From: Candidatus Poribacteria bacterium
Lineage (GTDB): Bacteria; Poribacteria; WGA-4E; WGA-3G
Length of the DNA: 64,000 bases
Assembly: GCA_012270865.1 (NCBI GenBank)
Contig: JAAXHL010000056.1
Coordinates: 26,292-90,291, forward strand
Reading direction: 5' to 3'
The notes beneath the pieces were generated by a model. The model was given only the letters and a program-made list of their open reading frames with translations. It was not told the origin of the DNA and ran no database searches. The position numbers and the translations under genes are program-made. This document shows positions 8,953 through 47,782 of this stretch, piece by piece; the stretch's first letter is position 1; every line of letters begins with the position of its first letter.

Positions 8953-9564
8953 TCAAAATCTTTTTACCTGTTCTCGAAGTAAACGTTCCATGTAATCCTT
9001 CGCTTGATCGTCGGTTAATTCGCCGTTGAGGATCGGTACGACTTCAAATTCTGCTAACCGGACGGTCGGATTCAGTCCGTGTAGGGGTGGCAGCCAATCG
9101 CGGAACGTATCGAAGAAGGCACGTTGTGCGGTGCGACCGTTTGGATACGGGAAATCGGCAGTAGGTCGTCGGAAACGCGCCGGTCCCTTTGCGAGTGCTG
9201 CGATATGGTGTTGTTGACAGAAGCCTTCGTATTTCCGCGGTGTATAAGCAAGTGGAACATCCTCCGGATAGAACTGAAAGGTCCGTTCCCGATATTCCGT
9301 GAAATGCTGCAGTTCGTCAAACTCAAAGATAAAATGATACGGTTCAGGAAAATAGGCGTCAGGAATCAGGTAGCCGTCGGCTTTTGCTTTTGTGCCTTCC
9401 CAATCACCGTCAAGTTCTGTGTAGAGTGCCATCACAGCATCGTAGTGTTCCCCAAAATTTTCAGGACTCGGTTTGTTACGGAGCCACTGAAATTGGGCGC
9501 GGCGGTCTGCTTCTACGCCGAAAACTGTCTCTACCAATGCGATGATGCCTACCTCTAACCGCAT
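8953..9564 (-). CDS. hypothetical protein (weak PD-(D/E)XK/Vsr-like string)
   Basis: 203 aa. PDAYF...FIFEFDELQHF resembles nuclease-fold motifs, but the family was not recognised. Confidence 0.6.
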   Translation of the reverse strand: MRLEVGIIALVETVFGVEADRRAQFQWLRNKPSPENFGEHYDAVMALYTELDGDWEGTKAKADGYLIPDAYFPEPYHFIFEFDELQHFTEYRERTFQFYPEDVPLAYTPRKYEGFCQQHHIAALAKGPARFRRPTADFPYPNGRTAQRAFFDTFRDWLPPLHGLNPTVRLAEFEVVPILNGELTDDQAKDYMERLLREQVKRF

Positions 9565-10596: not shown

Positions 10597-11376
10597 ATGC
10601 CTCGAATCTTTAAACTTATCACCGTCCTCTGCTTGTTATTTTCGTTTATACTGCTATCGGGATGTACGGAGAGACAGCAGAACGAATTAAGTGTCTTCGC
10701 TGCAATCAGTTTGACGGATGCCCTCACTGAAATCGGAGAGGCGTTTGCAGCCGAAAATGAGGTTAAAGTCTATTATAACTTCGCTGCATCTACGACGTTA
10801 CAACGGCAACTCGAAAAGGGAGCATCAGGAGATGTCTTCATCTCGGCAAGTCCGCGCCAAGTCGTTGCTCTCGAAACGCATGGGTTGCTTGAAGCCGAAA
10901 GTCGCCAAGATTTACTAACGAATCGGTTAGTCCTTGTCTGTAATAAAACGGCAGAAATCGCAGTGGAAACGCTTACGCACCTCACTGTGCCTGAGATTTC
11001 GAGAATTGCTATCGGGCATCCAGATATCGTGCCTGCTGGCACTTACGCCAAAGAAGCCTTGACGCATTTCGGGTTATGGGATACACTACACCCGAAACTG
11101 ATTTTCGGCACAGATGTGCGTGCGACACTCGCTTATGTCACTGCTGGAAATGTGGATATGGCTATTGTCTATAAAACGGATACAACACTGACCAATCGTA
11201 TAAATGTGCTTTATCAGTTACCACCTGAAGCCTATACACCGATTATCTACCCGGCTGTCATTATGAAGGATAGTTCACAAAAGCAATTGGCGCGTAGATT
11301 TATTATCTATCTACAATCTATGCGGAGTGGTGAAATCTTTGAAAAGCACGGATTCACCGTTTTGGAACTAAAATGA
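10597..11376 (+). CDS. modA: molybdate ABC transporter substrate-binding lipoprotein
   Basis: 259 aa. Lipobox LLSGC, ModA-like FAAISLTDAL...VFISAS pattern, followed by modB and modC. Confidence 0.9.
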   Translation: MPRIFKLITVLCLLFSFILLSGCTERQQNELSVFAAISLTDALTEIGEAFAAENEVKVYYNFAASTTLQRQLEKGASGDVFISASPRQVVALETHGLLEAESRQDLLTNRLVLVCNKTAEIAVETLTHLTVPEISRIAIGHPDIVPAGTYAKEALTHFGLWDTLHPKLIFGTDVRATLAYVTAGNVDMAIVYKTDTTLTNRINVLYQLPPEAYTPIIYPAVIMKDSSQKQLARRFIIYLQSMRSGEIFEKHGFTVLELK

Positions 11377-12038
11377 GGATAACGCCTGCCGAAGTCGCTG
11401 CTCTCTCTTTATCTATAAAAGTCGCGTTGCTGAGTCTTGTTTTTACGTTTCCGATCGGATTATTCGTCGGTTGGCTTCTCGCAAAACGTACATTTCCGGG
11501 AAAGGCTTTACTGAATACACTCGTCTTATGTCCGTTGGTGTTGCCGCCTATCGTAAGCGGATATTTACTTCTTATTCTACTGGGTAGGAACGGACTCATC
11601 GGTGGATTTATCTATCAAGTTTTTGGGATAGAGATCGTTTTTTCGGAGTTGGCTGTTGTTATCGCAGTCTCCATTATCTCGTTTCCATTGTTAGTACGTG
11701 GTATCGTGACGGGGATGGAGTCTGTGCCGCTGGAACTCGAAAATGCAGCACGGACACTTGGGGCATCGCCAATCAAAGTGTTTTGGACGATAACCTTCCC
11801 GATGGCGTATCGCGGTGTTATTGGCGGAACGATCCTCGGTTTTTCCAAAAGTCTCGGTGAGTTTGGTGCCACAATCATGGTGGCGGGGAACATCCCAGGC
11901 AAGACCCAAACGATGGCGTTAGCAATTTTCAGTGCCGTTCATCTCGGAGAAGATGTTTCTGTTTATCGACTCGTGTTCATTTCAACGGTTGTTGCGTTTG
12001 TTGCGCTCTGGTTAACGGAACGCTTCACCCTCCGTTAA
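11373..12038 (+). CDS. modB: molybdate ABC transporter permease
   Basis: 221 aa, multi-TM. EAA-like loop ENAARTLGASPIKVFWTITFPMA. ATGA overlap with modA. Confidence 0.9.
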   Translation: MRITPAEVAALSLSIKVALLSLVFTFPIGLFVGWLLAKRTFPGKALLNTLVLCPLVLPPIVSGYLLLILLGRNGLIGGFIYQVFGIEIVFSELAVVIAVSIISFPLLVRGIVTGMESVPLELENAARTLGASPIKVFWTITFPMAYRGVIGGTILGFSKSLGEFGATIMVAGNIPGKTQTMALAIFSAVHLGEDVSVYRLVFISTVVAFVALWLTERFTLR

Positions 12039-12061
12039 ACAAAAATAAAGAAGGAGAAAAA

Positions 12062-12376
12062 ATGATGGGTTTGGAAATGTGGGTATTTTTAGGCTTAATC
12101 GCTTGTGGTGTACTCGTCTGGTCTCTATACCGACGTTCCGAAAAGGACGCAGATAAAAACAGAAAAGATCAAACTGACGATATGGATACCGTTGAGGATG
12201 CCGATGATGGCTTAGGGGAGCTGCTTTTGACCGGCTTGATGCTCAACGAGATATACGATGATGACAATCCACCTGACGATGCGGGTACCGATGGATTTGA
12301 TAGCGTGGATGACGGCGGCGGATTCGATGGTGGTGGATTCGATGATGGTGGATTTGACGGCGGCGGATTTGAATAA
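12062..12376 (+). CDS. small membrane protein with acidic GGGFD-repeat tail
   Basis: 104 aa. One N-terminal TM helix, then a D/E-rich tail ending GGGFDGGGFDDGGFDGGGFE. AAGGAG SD. Sits between modB and modC. Confidence 0.6.
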   Translation: MMGLEMWVFLGLIACGVLVWSLYRRSEKDADKNRKDQTDDMDTVEDADDGLGELLLTGLMLNEIYDDDNPPDDAGTDGFDSVDDGGGFDGGGFDDGGFDGGGFE

Positions 12377-12387
12377 TAGGGTCCGTT

Positions 12388-13461
12388 ATGGCAGACAGTA
12401 CCCAAATTAGACTCGACTTTCGGAAAAGCCTCGGGAATTTCACGTTAGATGTCAATTGCACGCTGGAAACGAAAGTGTCGGTGTTTTTAGGTGTGTCTGG
12501 AAGCGGTAAAAGTACGCTTCTTAATTGCGTCAGCGGCATCCTAACGCCCGATGAAGGTGAGATCGCCTTTGGTGAAGAGGTGCTTTACGCATCCGCCTCA
12601 AAAATTAATCTACCGCCTGAAAAACGACGTTTTGGATACGTTTTTCAGGAGGGATACCTATTTCCACACCTCACTGTTGCGCAGAATATCCGATACGGTC
12701 AACCTAAACCCCGCGAATCTTCAGCTGCGATAGATGTTCTTGAACTTGGCGAGTTTCTTCAGCGGTATCCGAGGGAACTCTCGGGAGGTCAACGTCAACG
12801 GGTTGCGATTGCGCGGGCACTCGCTATGGAACCACGGATGCTCCTGATGGATGAACCGCTTGCCTCCCTCGACACCGCATTGAAAGAGCGGATTATACCG
12901 TATCTGCGCCACGTTAAAGACGCGTTTGATATACCGATCCTTTATATCACCCACGCCTTTTCGGAGGCGATGGCACTTGCCGATGAAGCCTTTCTGATCG
13001 CCAATGGCGAAATTATAGCAAGAGGTGAACCGCACGGGTTGTTAACTGCCCCCTCCGCGATGCCGATCGCACAATTGACCGGTGTCGAAAACATCCTATT
13101 TCTTCCTGTAACGCTTTTCGACAAAGCGAAAGGTGTGACTTCATTGGAAATCGGGGATCAATCTCTTGTGATTCCTTACACTGAAGCAGAAATCGGTGAA
13201 ACCGTGCCGGTCGCTATCCGTGCGGAGGATATTATCATCTCCCTTGAACCGAATCTCTCAATTAGTGCACGCAACATATTACGCGGAACGATTCAGTCTC
13301 TTGATGTCAAGAGCGAATCGACATGGGTATCTATTCTCGTTGAATGGCATCATCTCGCTGTGAAGATTACACACCAAGCATCTGAGCAGCTACAGTTGAA
13401 AGAAGGTTTGGAGGTCTACTGCGTCATCAAAGCGAGTGCCATCAATCGGCTCTGGGAATAG
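12388..13461 (+). CDS. modC: molybdate ABC transporter ATP-binding protein with C-terminal TOBE/Mop domain
   Basis: 357 aa. Walker A GVSGSGKST, signature LSGGQRQRVAIARAL, Walker B LLMDEPL. Confidence 0.9.
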   Translation: MADSTQIRLDFRKSLGNFTLDVNCTLETKVSVFLGVSGSGKSTLLNCVSGILTPDEGEIAFGEEVLYASASKINLPPEKRRFGYVFQEGYLFPHLTVAQNIRYGQPKPRESSAAIDVLELGEFLQRYPRELSGGQRQRVAIARALAMEPRMLLMDEPLASLDTALKERIIPYLRHVKDAFDIPILYITHAFSEAMALADEAFLIANGEIIARGEPHGLLTAPSAMPIAQLTGVENILFLPVTLFDKAKGVTSLEIGDQSLVIPYTEAEIGETVPVAIRAEDIIISLEPNLSISARNILRGTIQSLDVKSESTWVSILVEWHHLAVKITHQASEQLQLKEGLEVYCVIKASAINRLWE

Positions 13462-31593: not shown

Positions 31594-31670
31594 GGACTTA
31601 CGCAATTTTCTATGTGTTATCTGCGATAGGCGGGGTTACAAACCCCGCCTACAAAGGGGTTGCGTAAGTT
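31594..31670. terminator. nested palindrome between convergent genes (possible bidirectional terminator)
   Basis: Outer ACTTACGCAA / TTGCGTAAGT around inner GGCGGGGTT-ACA-AACCCCGCC (31629-31649). A degenerate copy of the inner motif lies at about 47703-47725. Confidence 0.5.
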
Positions 31671-31732: not shown

Positions 31733-32794
31733 TTATTTAGAAATAGCATCAGGTCTATCTGTTACTGCTTCTGCGACCAGTCGTTCTAAATCTGGTTCTC
31801 TCCCTTTGCACGATATCAACTTGTGGTTGGCTTCATGAGCGATCAACGTGCCATCCCTATCAATAAGCCACCGTGCTGGAATAGATTTAACATCATACTG
31901 TTGTACCAGGGGACTCTGCCGTTCTTGTCCACTGTAAACCTGCCGCCAAGGAATGTCATTTTCCTTGAGAAAGTTACGCAGCTTCGCTTCGTCAGTGTCG
32001 AGGCTGACACCGATGACATCAAATCCCTGATCCCTATAAGTATCGTAAATATTCTTGATATTCAGTATATCCGTGATGCAGAAACCGTTCCAGACCGCCC
32101 AGAAATCGAGTAGAACGACTTGCCCGCGATAGTCCCGCAGCGAGATCGGTTTTCCATTGAAATCAGTTGTGGAAAAATCGGGAACAGGTTTTCCGAGCAA
32201 ACCCAACGGCGGCGTAACCTTTCTACGGTATTCCATTGCGCGTTCGGCGTTGCCTAACTCTTCATGAATCTGTGCAAGAAGGGTTTTAGAATTGAAAATT
32301 TTGAAACGGTCAATAAGTTGATCTATATCCTTTTCCCGTCCAGCTTCAATATAGAGACGAATAAGTATGCGGTAGATATAGAAAAAATTTTCATCGTTTG
32401 GGTGTTGCTGAAGTTTCGCTTCCAAATCGGTGATAGATTTTTCAACGGTTGCCTCGTTGATATCTTCGCCCGGATTTTGTGGCTTGATTTCGACTCCCGC
32501 AGACGACTTTAGCAGTTCTAAATACCGAGGTATCCGCTCACGGCGAGGCAGATAATATGGATGAAACAGACTCATATTGTGTAGATGTCCGATCACTTCC
32601 AAATCTGGGGTAAGCGTCAGAATGTCCACAGAATCGGTGTAATTTTGTCGGAGTTTCGCTGCTAAGGCGGCTGCGTTTGCGCCTCTGGTACCCCTCTGTA
32701 GTTCGGGTAACTCTCTCAGTAGAACCCAGACATTCACAAAATGCGTGTTGAGCAGATTGATAATTTTCGGTGAGGAGAGCGGACCCGCTCTCAA
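31733..32794 (-). CDS. TPR + TlpA-like thioredoxin-fold protein (WNGFC instead of WCxxC); probably the C-terminal part of a longer UGA-containing ORF
   Basis: 353 aa from a TTG with no clear SD. In frame with ORF 32810..33625 and separated from it by a single TGA. TlpA module GQVVLLDFWAVWNGFCITD. Confidence 0.75.
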   Translation of the reverse strand: MRAGPLSSPKIINLLNTHFVNVWVLLRELPELQRGTRGANAAALAAKLRQNYTDSVDILTLTPDLEVIGHLHNMSLFHPYYLPRRERIPRYLELLKSSAGVEIKPQNPGEDINEATVEKSITDLEAKLQQHPNDENFFYIYRILIRLYIEAGREKDIDQLIDRFKIFNSKTLLAQIHEELGNAERAMEYRRKVTPPLGLLGKPVPDFSTTDFNGKPISLRDYRGQVVLLDFWAVWNGFCITDILNIKNIYDTYRDQGFDVIGVSLDTDEAKLRNFLKENDIPWRQVYSGQERQSPLVQQYDVKSIPARWLIDRDGTLIAHEANHKLISCKGREPDLERLVAEAVTDRPDAISK

Positions 32795-32812
32795 AGATTT
32801 GCCCGACCCTCA
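32771..32812 (-). promoter_or_regulatory. in-frame UGA plus candidate bacterial SECIS hairpin
   Basis: UGA at 32810-32812. 17 nt downstream lies GAGAGCG-GGUC-CGCUCUC (32775-32792). UGAG can also pair with the CUCA that flanks the hairpin. Confidence 0.5.
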
Positions 32813-33625
32813 GCAGGATTCATCGTCGAGTACGCCAAATAAAAGCACCGCGTGAATCGGACGATTCAATGCTTTCGCACGTTCAACAGCATCTTCAATC
32901 GGGGTCCACGCAATTTCAGTGAACTTGTAAAGCGCGTTCCGAAACTTCTCCCCAACTACTTCCGCAGTGATAGCAGTTTCCCAAGCGATCGGTTTCGGTT
33001 GCTCCTCTGATAAACCACAGAGCTCCATGCGAGGCACAAACCCTATATCGGCAGTTCTAAAGGCTCCGATATCGACGTTGCTATTGTGAGATGGAAGCGA
33101 TAAGGTGAATCGACAAATCGCTCCGTTATTGCGGTTGATGATCAGATGTCCAAAAAACTGTGCGGGTCTAAAATAGGCACCGATGGACGTGTCCAGCGTA
33201 AAGCGCGCATGGATTCGGAAGACAATATCGGCATATTCAGGCGAAATTGCCCGTAAACACGCCTTTGCACCCTTCTGACCATGCCTGAGATTCATTGTTG
33301 CACTGCGGTGAAACTGACGAAGAAACGGGAGGATCCCGTCCGGGTCCAAGTCCCAGACATCCCCAACGTTAACAGTTGACGGTGGAAGAAAGACTTGAAA
33401 ATCCGTTGTGTTGTAGCGTTTCAATGGCTGCGTAGGTCCCGGATTGAATAATTTTAGCCACTGCTCCCATGTCATATCCACCGGTTCATGCCATTGTGCC
33501 TTGGATCGATTAAACTTTTCTTCTGTCGCCCAATGCAAGTTATTCGCTGTGTTCTCGATCGGATCCCAATGCGCCTGCACTGGGATATGCTCCGAAGTTT
33601 TCAGTACATTACGAAGGTCTATCAA
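32810..33625 (-). CDS. hypothetical protein ending in ...LLFGVLDDESC-TGA; probably the N-terminal part of a Sec-containing thioredoxin-fold protein
   Basis: 271 aa. TTG start 7 nt after GGGAG. Stop codon is TGA. See the finding on the UGA junction. Confidence 0.75.
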   Translation of the reverse strand: MIDLRNVLKTSEHIPVQAHWDPIENTANNLHWATEEKFNRSKAQWHEPVDMTWEQWLKLFNPGPTQPLKRYNTTDFQVFLPPSTVNVGDVWDLDPDGILPFLRQFHRSATMNLRHGQKGAKACLRAISPEYADIVFRIHARFTLDTSIGAYFRPAQFFGHLIINRNNGAICRFTLSLPSHNSNVDIGAFRTADIGFVPRMELCGLSEEQPKPIAWETAITAEVVGEKFRNALYKFTEIAWTPIEDAVERAKALNRPIHAVLLFGVLDDESC

Positions 33626-33734
33626 TGTCTTGCTCCCATTATTAGGACGATTTATGGTGAATTATCAAAATATGTGGATAATCTTGTAGGGCATCCCTTG
33701 TAGATGTCCGCTAAAATCTACTATAGTAAACACC

Positions 33735-34949
33735 CTATTGATTCGCAGATTTATCCTTAAGTGCTTCCACCACAAGCCGTTCTAAGTCTTCACCTCTCGC
33801 TTTATGCGAAATTAATTTGCCATCTCTATCAATAAGCCACTGTTCTGGAATACCACGGACACCGTATTGCCGGACAAGAGAATCGGCACCCCTTGCGCCA
33901 TCAAAAATTTGCCGCCATTGGATGTCGTTCTCTTTGATATAGTCCCGAAGCTCCTTTTCCGTATCATCAAGACTGACAGCGATGATGTCAAACCCTCGAT
34001 CTTTGTAGGTATCGTAAACGCTTTTGAGATTCGGCATTTCGGTGATGCAGAAACCACACCACACTGCCCAAAAGTCGAGCAAGACAACTTTCCCACGATA
34101 ATCCTGCAGCGAAATCGGATTCCCATCAAGGTCGGTTGCGGCAAAGTCTGTCACAGGTTTTCCCCACAATTCATATTTCGGATCAGCCTTGCGGTCATAT
34201 ATATCGGCGAGTTCAGTATTTCCCAATTCCCTATAGATGTGGGCAATTCGCCAGAGGATAGGTTCGGCATCCGGGTGCTGCTGCTCCGCCTCCTTAAAAA
34301 TCTCAAGCATTTCCTCGTATCGCTCGTCTCTCCTAAGCACATCGAATAACATTCGATAATGATCAAGGTCCTTTGTTGGGTCTGACTTGAGACGTTCTAT
34401 AATGACATTTGCAGACTGTTCGTTTCCGACTTTAGTGTAGAGTCTGATAAGTTGTGGATAGACTTCGGAGACACGCGGGTTATCTGGCTGTCGCGCAAGG
34501 GCATCCTCAAAAGCAGTTATCGCTGCTTCGGAACTCCCGTAAAGGTCTTCCGGTGTGAATTCCCAAACAGCAGATGACGTGTAGATTTTTGAAGAGAAAC
34601 TCAGGTTCAAACACCCAAAATCTTCGTTCTCGTGATGTCGGCAACGGACAAGGGGCATAACATCACCATATATCAAGCGTTGTTTGCTTTTCTCATCTCG
34701 GTATTCAGGGTGAAACTGATACCCATAACTCACCGGCATTTTCGGATCTGCGTTCAGGGAAAAGATGGTCTCGCCACCCGCTTCGTCCGCAGGACAGATC
34801 AAGGTACTCGCATCTGCCAAATATTTCGGATGAAGGTCTGAAAGCCAGTCAGGAAAATCAGCGTGCTCTTTCTTATATGCCTCAATCGCCTTGCCAATCG
34901 CAACCAAATTTTGCGTACAGGTTTCAATATTCTTCTCGTGCTGTTTCAT
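33735..34949 (-). CDS. TPR + TlpA-like thiol-disulfide oxidoreductase (WCGFC)
   Basis: 404 aa. C-terminal GKVVLLDFWAVWCGFCITEMP with TPR-like repeats upstream. Paralogue of the two neighbouring genes. Confidence 0.85.
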   Translation of the reverse strand: MKQHEKNIETCTQNLVAIGKAIEAYKKEHADFPDWLSDLHPKYLADASTLICPADEAGGETIFSLNADPKMPVSYGYQFHPEYRDEKSKQRLIYGDVMPLVRCRHHENEDFGCLNLSFSSKIYTSSAVWEFTPEDLYGSSEAAITAFEDALARQPDNPRVSEVYPQLIRLYTKVGNEQSANVIIERLKSDPTKDLDHYRMLFDVLRRDERYEEMLEIFKEAEQQHPDAEPILWRIAHIYRELGNTELADIYDRKADPKYELWGKPVTDFAATDLDGNPISLQDYRGKVVLLDFWAVWCGFCITEMPNLKSVYDTYKDRGFDIIAVSLDDTEKELRDYIKENDIQWRQIFDGARGADSLVRQYGVRGIPEQWLIDRDGKLISHKARGEDLERLVVEALKDKSANQ

Positions 34950-35006
34950 ATCAGTATTTTCCTTTCAAATTTCTAAGATGTTTGCATAAGTCTTGGACAC
35001 GTTTAA

Positions 35007-35666
35007 CTATTCATCCTCGATTTTGTCTCGAAGTGCTTCTACTACGAGCCGCCCTAACTTCACGCCTCTCGCCTCACGTGAGATTAACGTGCCATCTCTA
35101 TCAATAAGCCACAGTGCGGGAATAGAACGAATATGATACTTTTGTGCCAGCGGACTTCTCCACTTCTGCCCGCTAAAAATCTGCCGCCAAGGGATGTTGT
35201 TCTCCTTAAGGTAGTTTCGGAGTCTCGTTTCATCTGTGTCAAGGTTAACCCCGATAATGTCAAATCCTTCATCTTTATAGGTATCGTAAACGCTTTTGAC
35301 GTTTGGCATCTCTGCGAGACAGGGACCGCACCAGATTGCCCAGAAGTCGAGTAGGATGACTTTCCCACGATATTGTTGCAGCGAGATCGGTTTACCATCA
35401 AGGTCAGTTGCGGAAAAGTCAGGCACGACCTTTCCTACAAGTTCCGACATCGGATCCATCTTTTTCCGATATTCCGCGGCGAGTTCGGAATTACCGAGTT
35501 CCTCATGAATTCGGGCGAGCTCCTCAAGGACATAGCGATTGTTCGGATGGCGTTTCTCAAATTTCTCGAAAACCGCAACGGCGAAAATAACGAAACTTTT
35601 CATCGTGGTGTCAACGAGAAATTTCAGCAATGGGTCTGCATAGAGTGTCTCAATGAATTGCATCAT
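35007..35666 (-). CDS. membrane-anchored TlpA-like thiol-disulfide oxidoreductase (WCGPC) with BlaR1-like N-terminal stub
   Basis: 219 aa. N-terminus MMQFIETLYADPLLKFLVDTTMKSFVIFAVAV resembles the first TM of BlaR1/M56 sensors. ATGA overlap with the blaI-like gene. Confidence 0.8.
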   Translation of the reverse strand: MMQFIETLYADPLLKFLVDTTMKSFVIFAVAVFEKFEKRHPNNRYVLEELARIHEELGNSELAAEYRKKMDPMSELVGKVVPDFSATDLDGKPISLQQYRGKVILLDFWAIWCGPCLAEMPNVKSVYDTYKDEGFDIIGVNLDTDETRLRNYLKENNIPWRQIFSGQKWRSPLAQKYHIRSIPALWLIDRDGTLISREARGVKLGRLVVEALRDKIEDE

Positions 35667-36052
35667 GACGAAGTGTCTCCTTTTTTCGCTTGCACGATGA
35701 GTTGGCTTAAACGGTCAAGCTCCTCATCTGAGAGGTCAACTTCGGAAACCAGCGCGATGACCGTTTTTTCAATGGATTTATCAAAAAACGTCTGAAAAAT
35801 CTGTTTGAGCGCGGAACGTCCCGCCTGATGGCGCGGTTGCGTCGGACGATAGATATAACGTTTACCATCTTTTTTATGTGTGAGATACCCTTTTTCTTCT
35901 AAAATCCGCAACAGTGCCCGAACTGTAGAGTAAGTTGGCGGATCCGGGAGGTCCTCAAGGACATCGAAAACAGAAGCGCAACCGCGCTGGTAGACGATAT
36001 CCATGATTTGCCGTTCCCGCCGACTCAACTTGACGGTGCCGTAGTCTTCCAT
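35663..36052 (-). CDS. BlaI/MecI/CopY family transcriptional repressor
   Basis: 129 aa. LSRRERQIMDIVYQRG...TYSTVRALLRILEEKGYLTHKKDGKRYIYRP winged-helix signature. Confidence 0.9.
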   Translation of the reverse strand: MEDYGTVKLSRRERQIMDIVYQRGCASVFDVLEDLPDPPTYSTVRALLRILEEKGYLTHKKDGKRYIYRPTQPRHQAGRSALKQIFQTFFDKSIEKTVIALVSEVDLSDEELDRLSQLIVQAKKGDTSS

Positions 36053-36073
36053 TTTTTCACCTCTTCTGAGAAT

Positions 36074-36134
36074 ATGCTAATATTTTAGCATTTAGGAAAA
36101 ATGATGTCAAGAAAAAATGCTAAAAATTTAGCAT
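36074..36134 (-). promoter_or_regulatory. promoter with two palindromic operators upstream of the blaI-like gene
   Basis: Dyads ATGCTAATATTTTAGCAT (36074-36091) and ATGCTAAAAATTTAGCAT (36117-36134). On the minus strand: TTGACA (36110-36105), 17 nt, TAAAAT (36087-36082). The -10 element lies inside dyad 1. Confidence 0.65.
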
Positions 36135-36340
36135 AAATCTTGAGATTGATTATATCTTCCAAAAAACTGGCGAAATTTGGTAAAAAAGGTGTTTGGGGAA
36201 GGATTGGAAGTGGTGTTTGCGTTGCTTGGAAGTGGGTTGGTTGATTTAAGGAGACTAAGGCTGTTACATTGTCCGAGATGGATAACGCAACAGCCTTAGA
36301 TAAAATGTGTGGTTAAAAACCGTGCTAACAGACAAAAACG

Positions 36341-37819
36341 CTATTCAAAAGCGCCGACCTTCGCTGCTTCAGGTGCGCGTGTCGGGAGTTCTTTCTTCGC
36401 TAATGTGTCTTCAGGCACGTAACCGGAGTAGTCAGAAATCTGACCGTGTGTCAACGCATACACCACGACGTTTGTCATGAAACGATAGACACCGGGTGAA
36501 TAGTGGACACTACGTGTCGGGAGACTGACAGATTCCATTGCGCACATGTAGTCGCGACGGACAACGATGACTGACAACTTGTCGCCGACGGAGATACCTT
36601 CGAGGTAGTTCCGTTTCGGTGGACGTGTGCCCCACCAGAAGATGTCGAATCCGACTGGGGGTCCGCCCATTTCATAGAAGTTGTCATAAACTTCGTGGTC
36701 GTTCTGAATCCGCTCAATCTGATACTCAGGCATGACGTAGCGCATCTGTGCGAGGAAGAGACGGATCATTGCCTGTGCGGGAGCGTTCACACCGCAGTCG
36801 TCAAAGACGAGGAATCCGCCTTTTTCGACGAGGTAGCGGCGCATACCGGCGGCTTCAGTCTCAGTGAGACGGCTATCCATCTTACCACCACCGTACTGCC
36901 GTCCGAGCAAGTTACGGGAACGGACGAGTGACGGATCGTGTCCTGTCATGAAGACGAAAGGCGTTTTGAAGAGGTTGGCATCGGTAAGTTTCAATGCGCC
37001 ACCTTCAACGTTCATGTCGGTTTTGATTTTGGTACGTTCGTTGAGCCACTTCGTCAATGCGTTGAGAGAAGAGGCATCCGCCCACCAGTCAGAGAGACTG
37101 TGACGAATCCGTGTGAAACGGAACACGCCGCGGATGTCTTTACCTTTACCGATAACACGTCCACCGGGTTCGCCTCTCGGCAGGGGTGGCACTTCAACGT
37201 TACCGAGTGTGATGTTCTCAACGACATCGCTAAGTGCGTCGCGTGCGGCACCGACGTTTTCGACCATTGCGAGTCCGGGTGGACGTTCAAAAGCGACTTT
37301 GACCTGTACTGCGGTACCAGCGACACCACGACCGATGTTAGCCGGTCCGGCGGAAGGCGCGTTTGCGACAGGTGCGGAGAACGCCAAGGCACCGGGAGCA
37401 TCCGATACTGGAAGGTCCGTATGTGTTACAACTGTCGGTATGGGTGCGTTCGGTGTAACGACCTTCGGCACGTTCGGGTTGATCGGCGCGTCAACTTTGA
37501 CTGTCTGATTAGAGAATTCGAGAACCGTCTGCGGTTGGAAGCTGGACTTCGCGACGAACGCTGTCGTTACACGGGGTTGTACTTGAACCTGTTCGACAAC
37601 AACGGTGTTCTGTGTCGGGACAGTCGGCTTGATAACCGGCTTGACGACGGGTTTCCGGACCTTCGGCTTCGGCGGCTCTTTGGCTTCGAGCACTTCGGCA
37701 CCAACGAGATCTTTGAACTGTTCGGTCTGCGTGACCAATACGAGTCCAGCAATAATAATGATGATCCCGTGAATTACCAACGAAGTCATGAAGGCACCAG
37801 AGGTTCTTTTTGCACTCAT
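36341..37819 (-). CDS. DUF4159 domain-containing membrane protein
   Basis: 492 aa. N-terminal TM, Pro/Val-rich linker, C-terminal PFVFMTGH...GGFLVFDDCG...NDHEVYDNFYE pattern of DUF4159. Confidence 0.8.
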   Translation of the reverse strand: MSAKRTSGAFMTSLVIHGIIIIIAGLVLVTQTEQFKDLVGAEVLEAKEPPKPKVRKPVVKPVIKPTVPTQNTVVVEQVQVQPRVTTAFVAKSSFQPQTVLEFSNQTVKVDAPINPNVPKVVTPNAPIPTVVTHTDLPVSDAPGALAFSAPVANAPSAGPANIGRGVAGTAVQVKVAFERPPGLAMVENVGAARDALSDVVENITLGNVEVPPLPRGEPGGRVIGKGKDIRGVFRFTRIRHSLSDWWADASSLNALTKWLNERTKIKTDMNVEGGALKLTDANLFKTPFVFMTGHDPSLVRSRNLLGRQYGGGKMDSRLTETEAAGMRRYLVEKGGFLVFDDCGVNAPAQAMIRLFLAQMRYVMPEYQIERIQNDHEVYDNFYEMGGPPVGFDIFWWGTRPPKRNYLEGISVGDKLSVIVVRRDYMCAMESVSLPTRSVHYSPGVYRFMTNVVVYALTHGQISDYSGYVPEDTLAKKELPTRAPEAAKVGAFE

Positions 37820-47632: not shown

Positions 47633-47782
47633 ATTGGCTGTCAGCCATCGGAAACCTTCAGCAATCAGAGGTCAGCGTCTGCATTATAGTAAAGCCCACA
47701 ATTAATTAGACATTCAAAGATTGGCGGGGTTACAAACCCTGAAGAAACACCCCAGCAAAAACCCTGCAATGAAGGAGATTTT

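What the first reader, a model, noticed from the sequence alone, without database searches (positions are those of the whole stretch)
31733..36134. BlaI-type repressor heads an operon of three paralogous TPR-TlpA genes, with only a stub of a BlaR1 sensor
All on the minus strand, read from the promoter: the blaI-like gene (36052-35663) overlaps by ATGA a 219-aa gene. The first ~33 residues of that gene (MMQFIETLYADPLLKFLVDTTMKSFVIFAVAV) look like TM1 of BlaR1/M56 sensor proteases, but they run straight into a TPR remnant and a WCGPC TlpA domain. No HExxH peptidase domain is present. Two more paralogues follow (WCGFC, then the UGA-containing gene with WNGFC). In canonical BlaI/BlaR1 systems the sensor protease cleaves the repressor. 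Here the sensor slot is filled by a membrane-anchored thiol-disulfide oxidoreductase. That suggests either a redox-responsive variant of the BlaI/BlaR logic or a decayed sensor created by recombination among the paralogues.
Basis: partly seen in the sequence, partly recalled or inferred. Interest (0 to 1): 0.6.

Follow-up and report, generated by a model that had tools for sequence, protein, structure and literature searches.

The report
Deletion remnant of a BlaR1-TlpA sensor
The odd "stub of a sensor" next to the BlaI repressor is what remains after a 1.7-kb in-frame deletion removed the protease core of a BlaR1-type sensor that related Poribacteria carry intact, fused to a thiol-redox domain; this copy is a decayed switch, not a new design.

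Summary
blaI (36052-35663) overlaps a 219-aa gene by ATGA. That gene's first 31 residues look like BlaR1, and the rest is a TPR remnant plus a TlpA domain (WCGPC). Two paralogues follow.

The window comes from Candidatus Poribacteria. In 31 of 32 related loci with a 740-830-aa gene in this slot, the gene is a BlaR1 M56 protease (HExxH, four TM helices) fused C-terminally to TPR-TlpA. The window product equals residues 1-31 plus 590-777 of that fusion. This is a 558-codon in-frame deletion between 9-10-nt direct repeats. It is real: three metagenome runs from two studies span the junction exactly.

Two further losses sit at the same locus:
- a 96-nt in-frame deletion removed the signal peptide of the second paralogue;
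- a roughly 2-7-kb operator-controlled cassette upstream of blaI is missing.

The third gene is a conserved Cys-Sec selenoprotein and is intact.

Most likely this is an eroding regulon whose repressor has lost its own sensor protease. The more interesting object is the intact, uncharacterised BlaR1-TPR-TlpA family in relatives.

The parts
36074..36134 (-). Promoter with two operator-like dyads. The promoter is TTGACA (36110-36105), a 17-nt spacer and TAAAAT (36087-36082) with an upstream TG. The dyads ATGCTAA-N4-TTAGCAT lie at 36117-36134 and 36074-36091.
   Evidence: The promoter matches 11 of 12 consensus positions. The two perfect dyads are the only matches in the window at up to 2 mismatches, against 0.16 expected by chance. 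The same dyads stand upstream of blaI in many related loci. BlaI binding is inferred, not shown.
35663..36052 (-). blaI: a BlaI/MecI/CopY-family winged-helix repressor, 129 aa, intact.
   Evidence: PF03965 E 2.2e-30, covering profile positions 1-113 of 115. MecI structure 1okr E 5e-8. It is 97-77% identical to the blaI of 63 Poribacteria loci. Pairwise dN/dS is 0.075.
35007..35666 (-). Deletion remnant of blaR1::TPR-tlpA, 219 aa. Codons 1-31 (35666-35574) are the BlaR1 N-terminus with half of TM1. Codons 32 to about 70 are the last TPR. Residues 77-199 are the TlpA/ResA-like domain, with WCGPC at residues 112-116.
   Evidence: BLASTP against the 777-aa L003 fusion: residues 1-31 match 1-31 at 30/31; residues 29-219 match 587-777 at 81%. 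Redoxin E 2.3e-22. ResA structure 4nmu E 1.6e-22. No HExxH.
35569..35579 (-). Deletion junction. The sequence TTGCGGTTTT joins BlaR1 codon 31 to fusion codon 590. About 1,674 bp (558 codons) are missing relative to L003 and L016.
   Evidence: blastn and local alignments to 10 relatives give a left end ...GTTGCG|GGTTTATT and a right start ...CTTGCG|GTTTTCGAG, with 1,638-1,732 bp missing. Contigs of runs X1, X3 and X6 cross the junction with 0 differences and no alternative joint.
33735..34949 (-). Second paralogue, 404 aa: an unassigned N-terminal domain, then TPR, then TlpA (WCGFC). Its signal peptide was removed by a 96-nt in-frame deletion after codon 2 (junction 34944/34943).
   Evidence: Pfam TPR and AhpC-TSA E 1.3e-24. 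Orthologues 83-87% identical read MKAILT...(32 codons)...EQHEKNIE, where the window reads MK|QHEKNIE. N-terminal 15-residue hydropathy is 0.76, against 1.92 in the L007 orthologue. In the AlphaFold model the TPR and TlpA parts are confident and residues 1-131 are not.
31733..33625 (-). Third gene: a 630-residue Cys-Sec selenoprotein. It has an unassigned N-terminal region, the motif ...DDESC-U-GSGK..., a TPR and a TlpA-like domain with WNGFC. The UGA is at 32812-32810.
   Evidence: The in-frame TGA is present in 30 of 30 orthologues, with conserved protein on both sides. Redoxin E 1.5e-17 on the read-through product. Orthologues start at the same M/V/L-IDLRNVL with no signal peptide.
32775..32792 (-). 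SECIS-like hairpin GAGAGCG-GGUC-CGCUCUC, 17 nt after the UGA.
   Evidence: The sequence is nearly invariant at the nucleotide level in 27 distinct orthologous sequences. The region folds at -15.2 kcal/mol, but the minimum-free-energy structure is a longer alternative hairpin. SelB binding is not shown.

Best explanation
This is the eroded copy of a Poribacteria regulon.

The normal form in relatives is:
- operator-promoter, then blaI;
- then blaR1::TPR-tlpA, a four-TM M56 zinc protease whose extracytoplasmic C-terminal domain is a TPR-TlpA thiol:disulfide oxidoreductase module instead of a penicillin-binding domain;
- then an exported TPR-TlpA paralogue;
- then a Cys-Sec selenoprotein.

In the window's lineage an illegitimate recombination or slippage event between two 9-10-nt direct repeats removed codons 32-589 of the sensor gene in frame. 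That took out half of TM1, TM2-4, the HExxH protease domain and most of the periplasmic module. What remains is 31 N-terminal residues joined to the last TPR and the TlpA domain.

Inferred consequences:
- BlaI can no longer be cleaved by its cognate sensor, so the operon stays under uninducible autorepression from the two intact dyads, unless a paralogous M56 protease elsewhere in the genome cross-acts.
- The 219-aa product is a mislocalised relic. It is probably cytoplasmic and not a membrane sensor.
- Because both deletions are in frame, translation still runs through the operon. That would spare the intact downstream selenoprotein gene from polar effects.

Two other derived losses at the same locus fit progressive decay of the envelope-facing parts of the system: the signal peptide of the second paralogue, and an upstream operator-controlled cassette.
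For: Shown:
- The 219-aa product is collinear with residues 1-31 and 590-777 of the L003 fusion.
- That fusion scores Peptidase_M56 E 6.5e-35 (residues 26-304) plus TPR plus Redoxin.
- 31 of 32 loci with a 740-830-aa gene overlapping blaI by ATGA carry both HExxH and a TlpA motif.
- At least 120 database clusters of mostly 765-806 aa hold both PF05569 and PF08534.
- In the blaI tree the window groups with L002 and L003 (support 100/94) inside the 44-row fusion clade.
- Direct repeats flank the missing segment in relatives.
- The deleted form was assembled independently: 9 contigs; runs X1, X3 and X6 from samples S1-S3 of two studies; zero mismatches across the junction; no full-length allele seen.
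- No M56 sequence is present in the 64-kb window.
- Hydropathy shows four TM segments in the fusion and none reaching the 1.6 cut-off in the remnant. BlaR1 topology is N-out/C-out (PMC9834060).
- The second paralogue lacks the 32-codon signal peptide found in its orthologues.
- In 14 of 15 relatives with DUF4159 upstream, 2.4-7.5 kb separate DUF4159 from blaI, against 289 bp in the window. Where I scanned it (L002, L014), that DNA carries TlpA-domain and ABC-2 permease genes behind a second operator-promoter copy.

Inferred from BlaI/BlaR1 biology (PMC9834060): BlaR1 cleaves BlaI directly, so loss of the protease means no induction.
Against: - Pairwise dN/dS of the retained TlpA tail is 0.09, no higher than among intact orthologues (0.12). 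With dS about 1.2 the test cannot see a recent event, but it gives no positive sign of decay.
- Both deletions are in frame, both CxxC motifs are intact and no stop codon has accumulated, so the products may still be used.
- The rest of the genome could not be searched (closed). A second M56 protease that cleaves this BlaI cannot be excluded.
- No RNA data exist for this organism in the runs offered, so neither repression nor co-transcription is shown.
Confidence: 0.9

Rival explanations
1. Neofunctionalisation. The two in-frame deletions were selected because they move two TlpA modules from the envelope to the cytoplasm. There they would work with the signal-peptide-less Cys-Sec selenoprotein as a cytoplasmic thiol-redox set. 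BlaI would act as a plain autorepressor or be cleaved by a paralogous M56 protease.
For: - Both deletions are in frame and remove exactly the targeting parts: TM1-4 with the protease, and the signal peptide.
- WCGPC and WCGFC are intact.
- dN/dS of the remnant is 0.09.
- The ATGA coupling and a Shine-Dalgarno-like AGGA before the second gene are kept.
- The selenoprotein has no signal peptide in any orthologue.
- Some Poribacteria genomes hold a second blaI locus (L004 and L040 lie on one chromosome), and a sister clade of blaI loci is paired with other M56 types.
Against: - Two in-frame events out of two is expected by chance about 1 time in 9.
- dN/dS is insensitive at dS about 1.2.
- Loss of the upstream cassette and independent disruption of the same sensor in six other genomes point to dispensability, not redesign.
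- TlpA-family domains normally depend on DsbD/CcdA-type reductant supply in the periplasm (established knowledge, not tested here).
Confidence: 0.08
2. This is a purpose-built minimal variant of BlaI/BlaR logic in which a TM-anchored TlpA domain senses redox state and controls BlaI without a protease.
For: - The gene order and ATGA overlap with blaI are as in sensor-repressor pairs.
- An intact CxxC is present.
Against: - The form is nested within a clade where the full M56 fusion is the rule.
- It was found in only one population.
- TM1 is cut in half.
- N-out topology would put the TlpA domain in the cytoplasm.
- No known route exists from a thioredoxin fold to BlaI inactivation without the protease.
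Confidence: 0.01
3. Assembly artefact. The deletion is a mis-join between repeated TlpA paralogues in a metagenome assembly.
For: The locus holds three paralogous TlpA modules, and short Logan contigs break inside them.
Against: - The junction lies in unique sequence and is crossed by single contigs in three runs from two studies with 0 mismatches.
- The exact 219-aa protein is on 9 contigs, including a 70-kb scaffold from another assembly.
- The tail is orthologous to the fusion's own tail, not to a paralogue.
Confidence: 0.01

Closest known systems
BlaI/BlaR1 and MecI/MecR1 of Staphylococcus aureus and Bacillus licheniformis
   Same: - A winged-helix BlaI-family repressor is encoded next to, and translationally coupled with, its sensor gene.
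- In relatives the sensor has the M56 HExxH protease between TM3 and TM4 and an extracytoplasmic C-terminal domain.
- The repressor gene sits behind dyad operators that overlap its own promoter.
   Different: - The C-terminal domain of the ancestral sensor is TPR-TlpA, not a class-D-like penicillin-binding domain.
- The controlled genes are TlpA paralogues and a selenoprotein, not a beta-lactamase or PBP2a.
- The dyad is ATGCTAA-N4-TTAGCAT, which differs from the TACA/TGTA motif I recall for BlaI/MecI/CopY operators (recalled, not checked here).
- In this window the protease and three and a half of the four TM helices are deleted.
Atypical BlaR systems without a penicillin sensor (M. tuberculosis and M. 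abscessus BlaR/BlaI; P. aeruginosa PvmS/PvmR)
   Same: An M56 protease and BlaI-family repressor pair is used for something other than beta-lactam sensing (bioRxiv 10.64898/2026.08.03.742534; PMC9834060 discussion).
   Different: - Those sensors simply lack a C-terminal domain but keep the protease.
- The Poribacteria family has a different C-terminal domain.
- This window's copy keeps that domain and lacks the protease.
Poribacteria M56-TPR-redoxin fusion proteins (NCBI 'redoxin domain-containing protein'; JGI 'beta-lactamase regulating signal transducer with metallopeptidase domain/peroxiredoxin')
   Same: These are the direct orthologues. The window product equals residues 1-31 plus 590-777 of these proteins, and blaI, the promoter and the downstream genes are collinear.
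   Different: The window copy lacks 558 internal codons. The family itself is only machine-annotated; I found no paper on it.
TlpA / ResA / CcmG (DsbE) periplasmic thiol:disulfide oxidoreductases
   Same: A thioredoxin fold with W-C-x-x-C. The best solved relatives are ResA 4nmu (E 1.6e-22) and TlpA 1jfu (E 7.9e-17). NCBIfam ResA and TlpA models match below their cut-offs.
   Different: - None of the three window proteins has a recognisable export signal or full membrane anchor.
- They carry TPR repeats.
- There is no cytochrome-maturation context.
- NCBIfam scores are far below the equivalog cut-offs (97.7 against 170 for ResA).

Membership tests
BlaI/MecI/CopY repressor (PF03965) | Full-length match to the Penicillinase_R profile (winged helix plus dimerisation helices) | tested here: met
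   E 2.2e-30 and 105.8 bits against a cut-off of 22.6, covering profile positions 1-113 of 115. MecI 1okr E 5e-8.
BlaI/MecI/CopY repressor (PF03965) | CopY-type C-terminal CxCxxxxCxC metal site (recalled as the feature that would make it a copper repressor) | tested here: not met
   The C-terminus reads ...LIVQAKKGDTSS with no cysteine. The CopY_TcrY model scores 65 bits against a cut-off of 122.
BlaR1/MecR1 M56 sensor-protease (PF05569) | HExxH zinc-binding motif of the M56 gluzincin domain | tested here: not met
   There is no HExxH in the 219-aa product and no M56-like sequence in the whole window. The motif is present at residues 210-237 in orthologues.
BlaR1/MecR1 M56 sensor-protease (PF05569) | Four transmembrane helices, N-out/C-out | tested here: not met
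   Hydropathy shows 4 segments at or above 1.6 in the L003 fusion and none in the window product, whose maximum is 1.54. Topology is from PMC9834060.
BlaR1/MecR1 M56 sensor-protease (PF05569) | Profile match to Peptidase_M56 | tested here: not met
   No PF05569 hit at E <= 0.01 for the 219-aa protein. The L003 orthologue scores E 6.5e-35.
BlaR1/MecR1 M56 sensor-protease (PF05569) | Descent from an M56 gene (orthology of the retained N-terminus and position after blaI) | tested here: met
   30 of 31 N-terminal residues are identical to L003 BlaR1. The same ATGA overlap is kept and the flanks are collinear.
TlpA/ResA/DsbE thiol:disulfide oxidoreductase | Thioredoxin-like fold with a CxxC active site | tested here: met
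   Redoxin, AhpC-TSA and Thioredoxin_8 hits in all three proteins. WCGPC and WCGFC are intact, while the third has WNGFC, so it is met for two of three. The model of the 404-aa protein has pLDDT mostly 74-95 over the TlpA domain.
TlpA/ResA/DsbE thiol:disulfide oxidoreductase | Export to the periplasm or outer face of the membrane (signal peptide, lipoprotein signal or N-in membrane anchor) | tested here: not met
   The signal peptide is deleted in the 404-aa gene. TM1 is truncated and of the wrong orientation in the 219-aa gene. The selenoprotein has no signal in any orthologue. These are hydropathy and sequence comparisons only; no dedicated signal-peptide predictor was available.
Bacterial selenoprotein (third gene) | In-frame UGA conserved among orthologues, with coding conservation on both sides | tested here: met
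   TGA in 30 of 30 orthologues within DDESC-U-G[ST]GK.
Bacterial selenoprotein (third gene) | SECIS hairpin just downstream of the UGA | tested here: inconclusive
   A 7-bp stem with a GGUC loop lies 17 nt after the UGA and is nearly invariant in nucleotides. The minimum-free-energy fold prefers an alternative longer hairpin. Almost no covariation is available.
Bacterial selenoprotein (third gene) | selA, selB, selD and tRNA-Sec in the genome | not testable with these tools
There is no tRNA gene in the window.

The most novel reading that the evidence does not exclude
The intact form of this locus in other Poribacteria would be an undescribed proteolytic envelope thiol-redox (or metal) stress switch.
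- A BlaR1-type M56 protease would use a periplasmic TPR-TlpA module as its sensor in place of a penicillin-binding domain.
- It would cleave BlaI to induce TlpA paralogues, ABC-2 exporters, an ECF-sigma-TlpA fusion and a Cys-Sec selenoprotein.
- The same TPR-TlpA module is also fused to ECF sigma factors, and in 9 of 31 sensors it has lost one active-site cysteine. That fits a binding or sensing role better than a catalytic one.
- The window copy would then be a natural sensor-null mutant of that switch.
Probability: 0.35. Interest if true: 0.6.

Novelty: new variant of a known kind. Interest (0 to 1): 0.35.

Why it matters
For this window the result is a clean negative. The unusual architecture is a deletion scar, so no new signalling logic should be inferred from it, and annotation should flag the 219-aa gene as a truncated blaR1 fusion.

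The comparison also brings out something worth follow-up. There is a large, unstudied family in sponge- and reef-associated Poribacteria in which the BlaR1 protease scaffold carries a thiol:disulfide oxidoreductase module as its outward-facing domain and sits in front of redox genes, including a selenoprotein. If that module is the sensor, it extends the BlaR1 'covalent capture to proteolytic derepression' principle from beta-lactams to thiol chemistry. It would also give a testable case of how M56 sensors swap input domains.

The recurrent independent inactivation of this sensor suggests the switch is often dispensable in these bacteria. The count is one deletion here, plus stops or frameshifts in six other fetched loci (five distinct sequences, since L001 and L027 are identical).

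Tried and rejected
Cross-talk by a paralogous sensor is therefore untested.
- Pfam and NCBIfam on the 219-aa protein for M56: no hit. This is uninformative, because only 31 residues remain; orthologue comparison was used instead.
- Global MAFFT alignment of the window against L001 misplaced the gap. It was replaced by blastn and local alignment.
- Co-transcription: no RNA run holds the organism, and the raw 2026 DNA and RNA runs gave 0 reads.
- dN/dS as a decay test: 0.09 against 0.12 at dS about 1.2, which is too saturated to date the deletion.
- AlphaFold of the 404-aa paralogue, to identify its N-terminal roughly 130-residue domain: pLDDT was below 50 there, so no fold search was run.
- Literature search for BlaR1-TlpA fusions or Poribacteria BlaR1: nothing specific found.
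- Recombination among paralogues as the origin of the remnant: rejected, because the tail is 81% identical to the fusion's own tail and 61% to the paralogues.
- Assembly artefact: rejected.


Full report
**What is in the window**

On the minus strand, one search lists these ORFs:
- blaI, 36052-35663, 129 aa;
- a 219-aa ORF, 35666-35007;
- a 404-aa ORF, 34949-33735;
- a 271-aa ORF, 33625-32810. It ends at a TGA and continues in frame into a 353-aa ORF ending at 31733.

Pfam results:
- blaI matches Penicillinase_R, E 2.2e-30.
- The 219-, 404- and 353-aa products each match Redoxin, AhpC-TSA and Thioredoxin_8.
- The 404-aa protein also has TPR hits.
- The 271-aa part has no hit.

NCBIfam places the redoxin domains nearest ResA and TlpA, but far below the equivalog cut-offs. 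The three TlpA modules are about 61% identical to one another. Their active sites read WCGPC, WCGFC and WNGFC. The blaI stop overlaps the next start as ATGA.

**Where the window comes from and what relatives have**

Homologues of the 219-aa protein are annotated as Candidatus Poribacteria. The best ones, 80-84% identical, extend N-terminally into more TPR. None carries the BlaR1-like N-terminus.

The contig that encodes one of them (L001) shows blaI, then a 476-aa Peptidase_M56 gene, then the TPR-TlpA gene. The M56 gene and the TlpA gene there are one reading frame interrupted by a single TGA. That TGA aligns with an arginine of the paralogue.

A scan of one genome per species with BlaI returned 63 Poribacteria loci. 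Among those where the gene overlapping blaI by ATGA is 740-830 aa long (32 loci), 31 have both HExxH at about 210-237 and a TlpA motif at about 657-697.

The L003 protein (777 aa) scores as follows:
- Peptidase_M56, E 6.5e-35, residues 26-304;
- TPR_14, residues 569-611;
- Redoxin from residue 635;
- NCBIfam blaR1_generic, E 2.9e-27, below its cut-off.

A search of the protein collection lists at least 120 clusters, mostly 765-806 aa, holding both PF05569 and PF08534. Sources name them only 'redoxin domain-containing protein' or 'beta-lactamase regulating signal transducer with metallopeptidase domain/peroxiredoxin'.

**The 219-aa gene is an internal deletion of that fusion**

BLASTP of the window product against the L003 fusion gives two collinear pieces:
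- residues 1-31 match residues 1-31, with 30 of 31 identical;
- residues 29-219 match residues 587-777, at 81%.

At the DNA level:
- window 36138-35569 aligns with blaI plus the first roughly 97 nt of blaR1 in seven relatives;
- window 35578-35007 aligns with the last roughly 570 nt of the fusion in five of them, and from 35572 or 35510 in L002 and L028.

The missing stretch is 1,638-1,732 bp, depending on the relative, and 1,674 bp (558 codons) against L003 and L016. In relatives the left breakpoint reads ...GTTGCG|GGTTTATT and the right reads ...CTTGCG|GTTTTCGAG. The window reads GTTGCGGTTTTCGAG. The event therefore lies between imperfect 9-10-nt direct repeats.

The tail is the fusion's own tail, not a paralogue's: 81% identity against about 61%. 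Recombination among paralogues is thus not the origin.

A maximum-likelihood tree of blaI plus the first 31 codons of blaR1 groups the window with L002 and L003 (support 100/94). This group lies inside a 44-row clade in which the fusion is the rule. A sister clade of 18 rows pairs BlaI with M56 proteins that have other C-terminal regions. The short form is derived.

**The deletion is real**

- The exact 219-aa protein is on 9 contigs, including a 70-kb scaffold of another assembly.
- Eight runs from three samples of two studies hold 98-100% of the sampled words of the region.
- Contigs of the three runs laid (one per sample) cross the junction with no mismatch, no alternative joint and no loose end there.
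- These copies differ from the window by 0-5 substitutions in up to 8.7 kb, so they represent one population.
- No other lineage with the same deletion was found.

**What the deletion removed and what that implies**

Hydropathy finds four segments above 1.6 in the L003 fusion, with window starts at about 16-21, 47-52, 121-132 and 314-326. This matches the four TM helices of BlaR1. The window product peaks at 1.54, below the 1.6 cut-off I used as the usual TM threshold. Its hydrophobic run, SFVIFAVAVF, is about half of TM1.

BlaR1 is N-out/C-out, with the protease facing the cytoplasm, and it cleaves BlaI directly (PMC9834060). Two inferences follow:
- BlaI has lost its cognate protease.
- Even if the remnant inserted like TM1, the TlpA domain would be cytoplasmic, whereas in the intact protein it follows TM4 and is extracytoplasmic.

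No M56 sequence exists elsewhere in the window. Only the periplasmic part of the deleted segment matches the 404-aa paralogue.

**The promoter and operators are intact**

A TTGACA-17-TAAAAT promoter lies at 36110-36082 and matches 11 of 12 positions. It is bracketed and overlapped by two perfect ATGCTAA-N4-TTAGCAT dyads. These are the only matches in the window, against 0.16 expected by chance. They recur upstream of blaI in relatives. blaI is intact, with pairwise dN/dS of 0.075.

**Two further derived losses at the locus**

1. *Signal peptide of the second paralogue.* Orthologues of the 404-aa gene (83-87% identical) begin MKAILT...ADTPAEKPNEGLMxEQHEKNIE. The window begins MK|QHEKNIE. This is a 96-nt, 32-codon in-frame deletion that removes the signal peptide.

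2. *Upstream cassette.*
   - In 14 of 15 relatives where the DUF4159 gene lies upstream, 2.4-7.5 kb separate it from blaI. In the window the distance is 289 bp.
   - In L014 the extra DNA starts with a second copy of the operator-promoter. It then encodes a 725-aa ECF-sigma factor fused to a TlpA domain, followed by two ABC-2/DUF3526 permeases. L002 has a TlpA-like gene plus two such permeases.
   - The window's DUF4159 flank is collinear with the distal promoter copy in L014, L021 and L024, and blaI is collinear with the proximal copy. Loss by recombination between the two promoter repeats is the simplest reading.

**The third gene is intact and is a selenoprotein**

- The in-frame stop is TGA in 30 of 30 orthologues, inside the conserved motif DDESC-U-G[ST]GK.
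- The downstream sequence GAGAGCG-GGTC-CGCTCTC is almost invariant at the nucleotide level and the region folds stably.
- All orthologues start at the same M/V/L-IDLRNVL without a signal peptide.
- The selenocysteine machinery could not be looked for.

**Is the remnant still used?**

- Pairwise dN/dS of the retained tail is 0.09, against 0.12 among intact orthologues, at dS about 1.2. This neither shows nor excludes relaxation.
- Both deletions are in frame and both CxxC motifs survive. A minority reading is therefore that the TlpA modules were moved to the cytoplasm. I give this 0.08.
- The erosion reading is favoured by the loss of the cassette and by independent lesions of the same sensor in other fetched loci: a stop in L001/L027 (identical sequences) and in L023, frameshifts in L002, L004 and L026, and a truncated, rearranged gene in L009. 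L002 is the closest relative.
- In-frame lesions may be the ones that survive because they avoid polar effects on the downstream selenoprotein gene. This is an inference.

**About the intact family**

Among the 31 fusion sensors:
- the CxxC is intact in 22;
- the first Cys is replaced in 8 (WYGPC, WHGPC, WSGPC, WWGPC);
- the second Cys is replaced in 1 (WCGPS).

The same N-domain-TPR-TlpA module is also fused to ECF sigma factors. This suggests a sensory or binding role, but nothing here tests it. Atypical BlaR systems with no penicillin sensor are known. I found no paper on BlaR1-TlpA fusions. Earlier notes of this scan also record M56-thioredoxin fusions in Poribacteria and in one other genome.

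**Verdict**

'Decayed sensor' is right, by intragenic deletion; 'new redox-sensor design' is not supported for this copy.
- Confidence in the deletion origin is 0.9. The functional consequences (uninducible repression, mislocalised relic) are inferred.

Noticed in passing
L014:2688-4865 (also L002 around 11000-12930): A 725-aa protein with an N-terminal ECF sigma factor (Sigma70_r2 and r4) and a C-terminal TlpA/Redoxin domain. It lies behind a second copy of the BlaI-type operator-promoter and is followed by two ABC-2/DUF3526 permease genes. In L002 a sigma-70 region-4-like sequence runs straight into the N-domain-TPR-TlpA module. The TPR-TlpA module thus seems to be a reusable input or output domain on several signalling scaffolds in Poribacteria.
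   Followed up: partly
window 36052-36341, compared with L002, L007, L014, L021, L024 and L028: The window lacks the 2.4-7.5 kb that separates DUF4159 from blaI in 14 of 15 relatives. Its single promoter is collinear on the left with the distal promoter copy and on the right with the proximal copy. This suggests loss by recombination between the duplicated operator-promoters.
   Followed up: partly
L001:9974-9976; L002 around 8974-8983; L004 around 9169-9178; L023; L026 around 6623: The same BlaR1-TlpA sensor gene is disrupted independently in other Poribacteria genomes. L001/L027 (identical sequences) and L023 each have one in-frame stop; the L001 stop is a TGA aligned to an Arg codon of the paralogue. 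L002, L004 and L026 each have a single frameshift. Whether these are true pseudogenes or assembly errors was not checked.
   Followed up: partly
L012, L017, L018, L022, L025, L031, L039, L041, L013 (fusion residues about 662-697): In 9 of 31 intact BlaR1-TlpA fusions the CxxC is degenerate (WYGPC, WHGPC, WSGPC, WWGPC, WCGPS). In those lineages the fused TlpA domain cannot be a normal dithiol oxidoreductase.
   Followed up: partly
window 31629-31649: A perfect 9-bp GC-rich hairpin (GGCGGGGTT-TGT-AACCCCGCC) lies 84 nt after the operon's last stop and has no T-run. Metagenome contigs of three runs break or diverge at exactly 31630 and 31669, and a partial copy lies at 47723-47743. It may be a repeated element that doubles as a terminator.
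   Followed up: partly
L035, L042, L044, L050-L063: A sister clade of blaI genes, 77-85% identical to the window's, is paired with mostly 790-1240-aa M56 proteins that lack a TlpA motif. Some genomes carry both kinds of locus; L004 and L040 lie on one chromosome. Such a paralogue could cross-act on the window's BlaI.
   Followed up: no
window 33735-34949, residues 1-131; fusion residues about 375-505: A conserved domain of about 110-130 residues precedes the TPR. It includes NIExCTQNLxAIGKAIxAYKKEHGDFPxWLSxLHPKYL...CPAD...VRCRHH, with conserved Cys and His. It has no Pfam hit and AlphaFold models it poorly (pLDDT below 50 with 37 sequences). Its start recalls the region after the N-terminal helix of pilin-like DUF1559 proteins; this is from memory and was not tested.
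   Followed up: partly
window 31733-33625: The Cys-Sec gene has TGA in 30 of 30 orthologues, followed by an almost invariant GAGAGCG-GGUC-CGCUCUC hairpin. Its first roughly 270 residues match no Pfam or NCBIfam family.
   Followed up: partly
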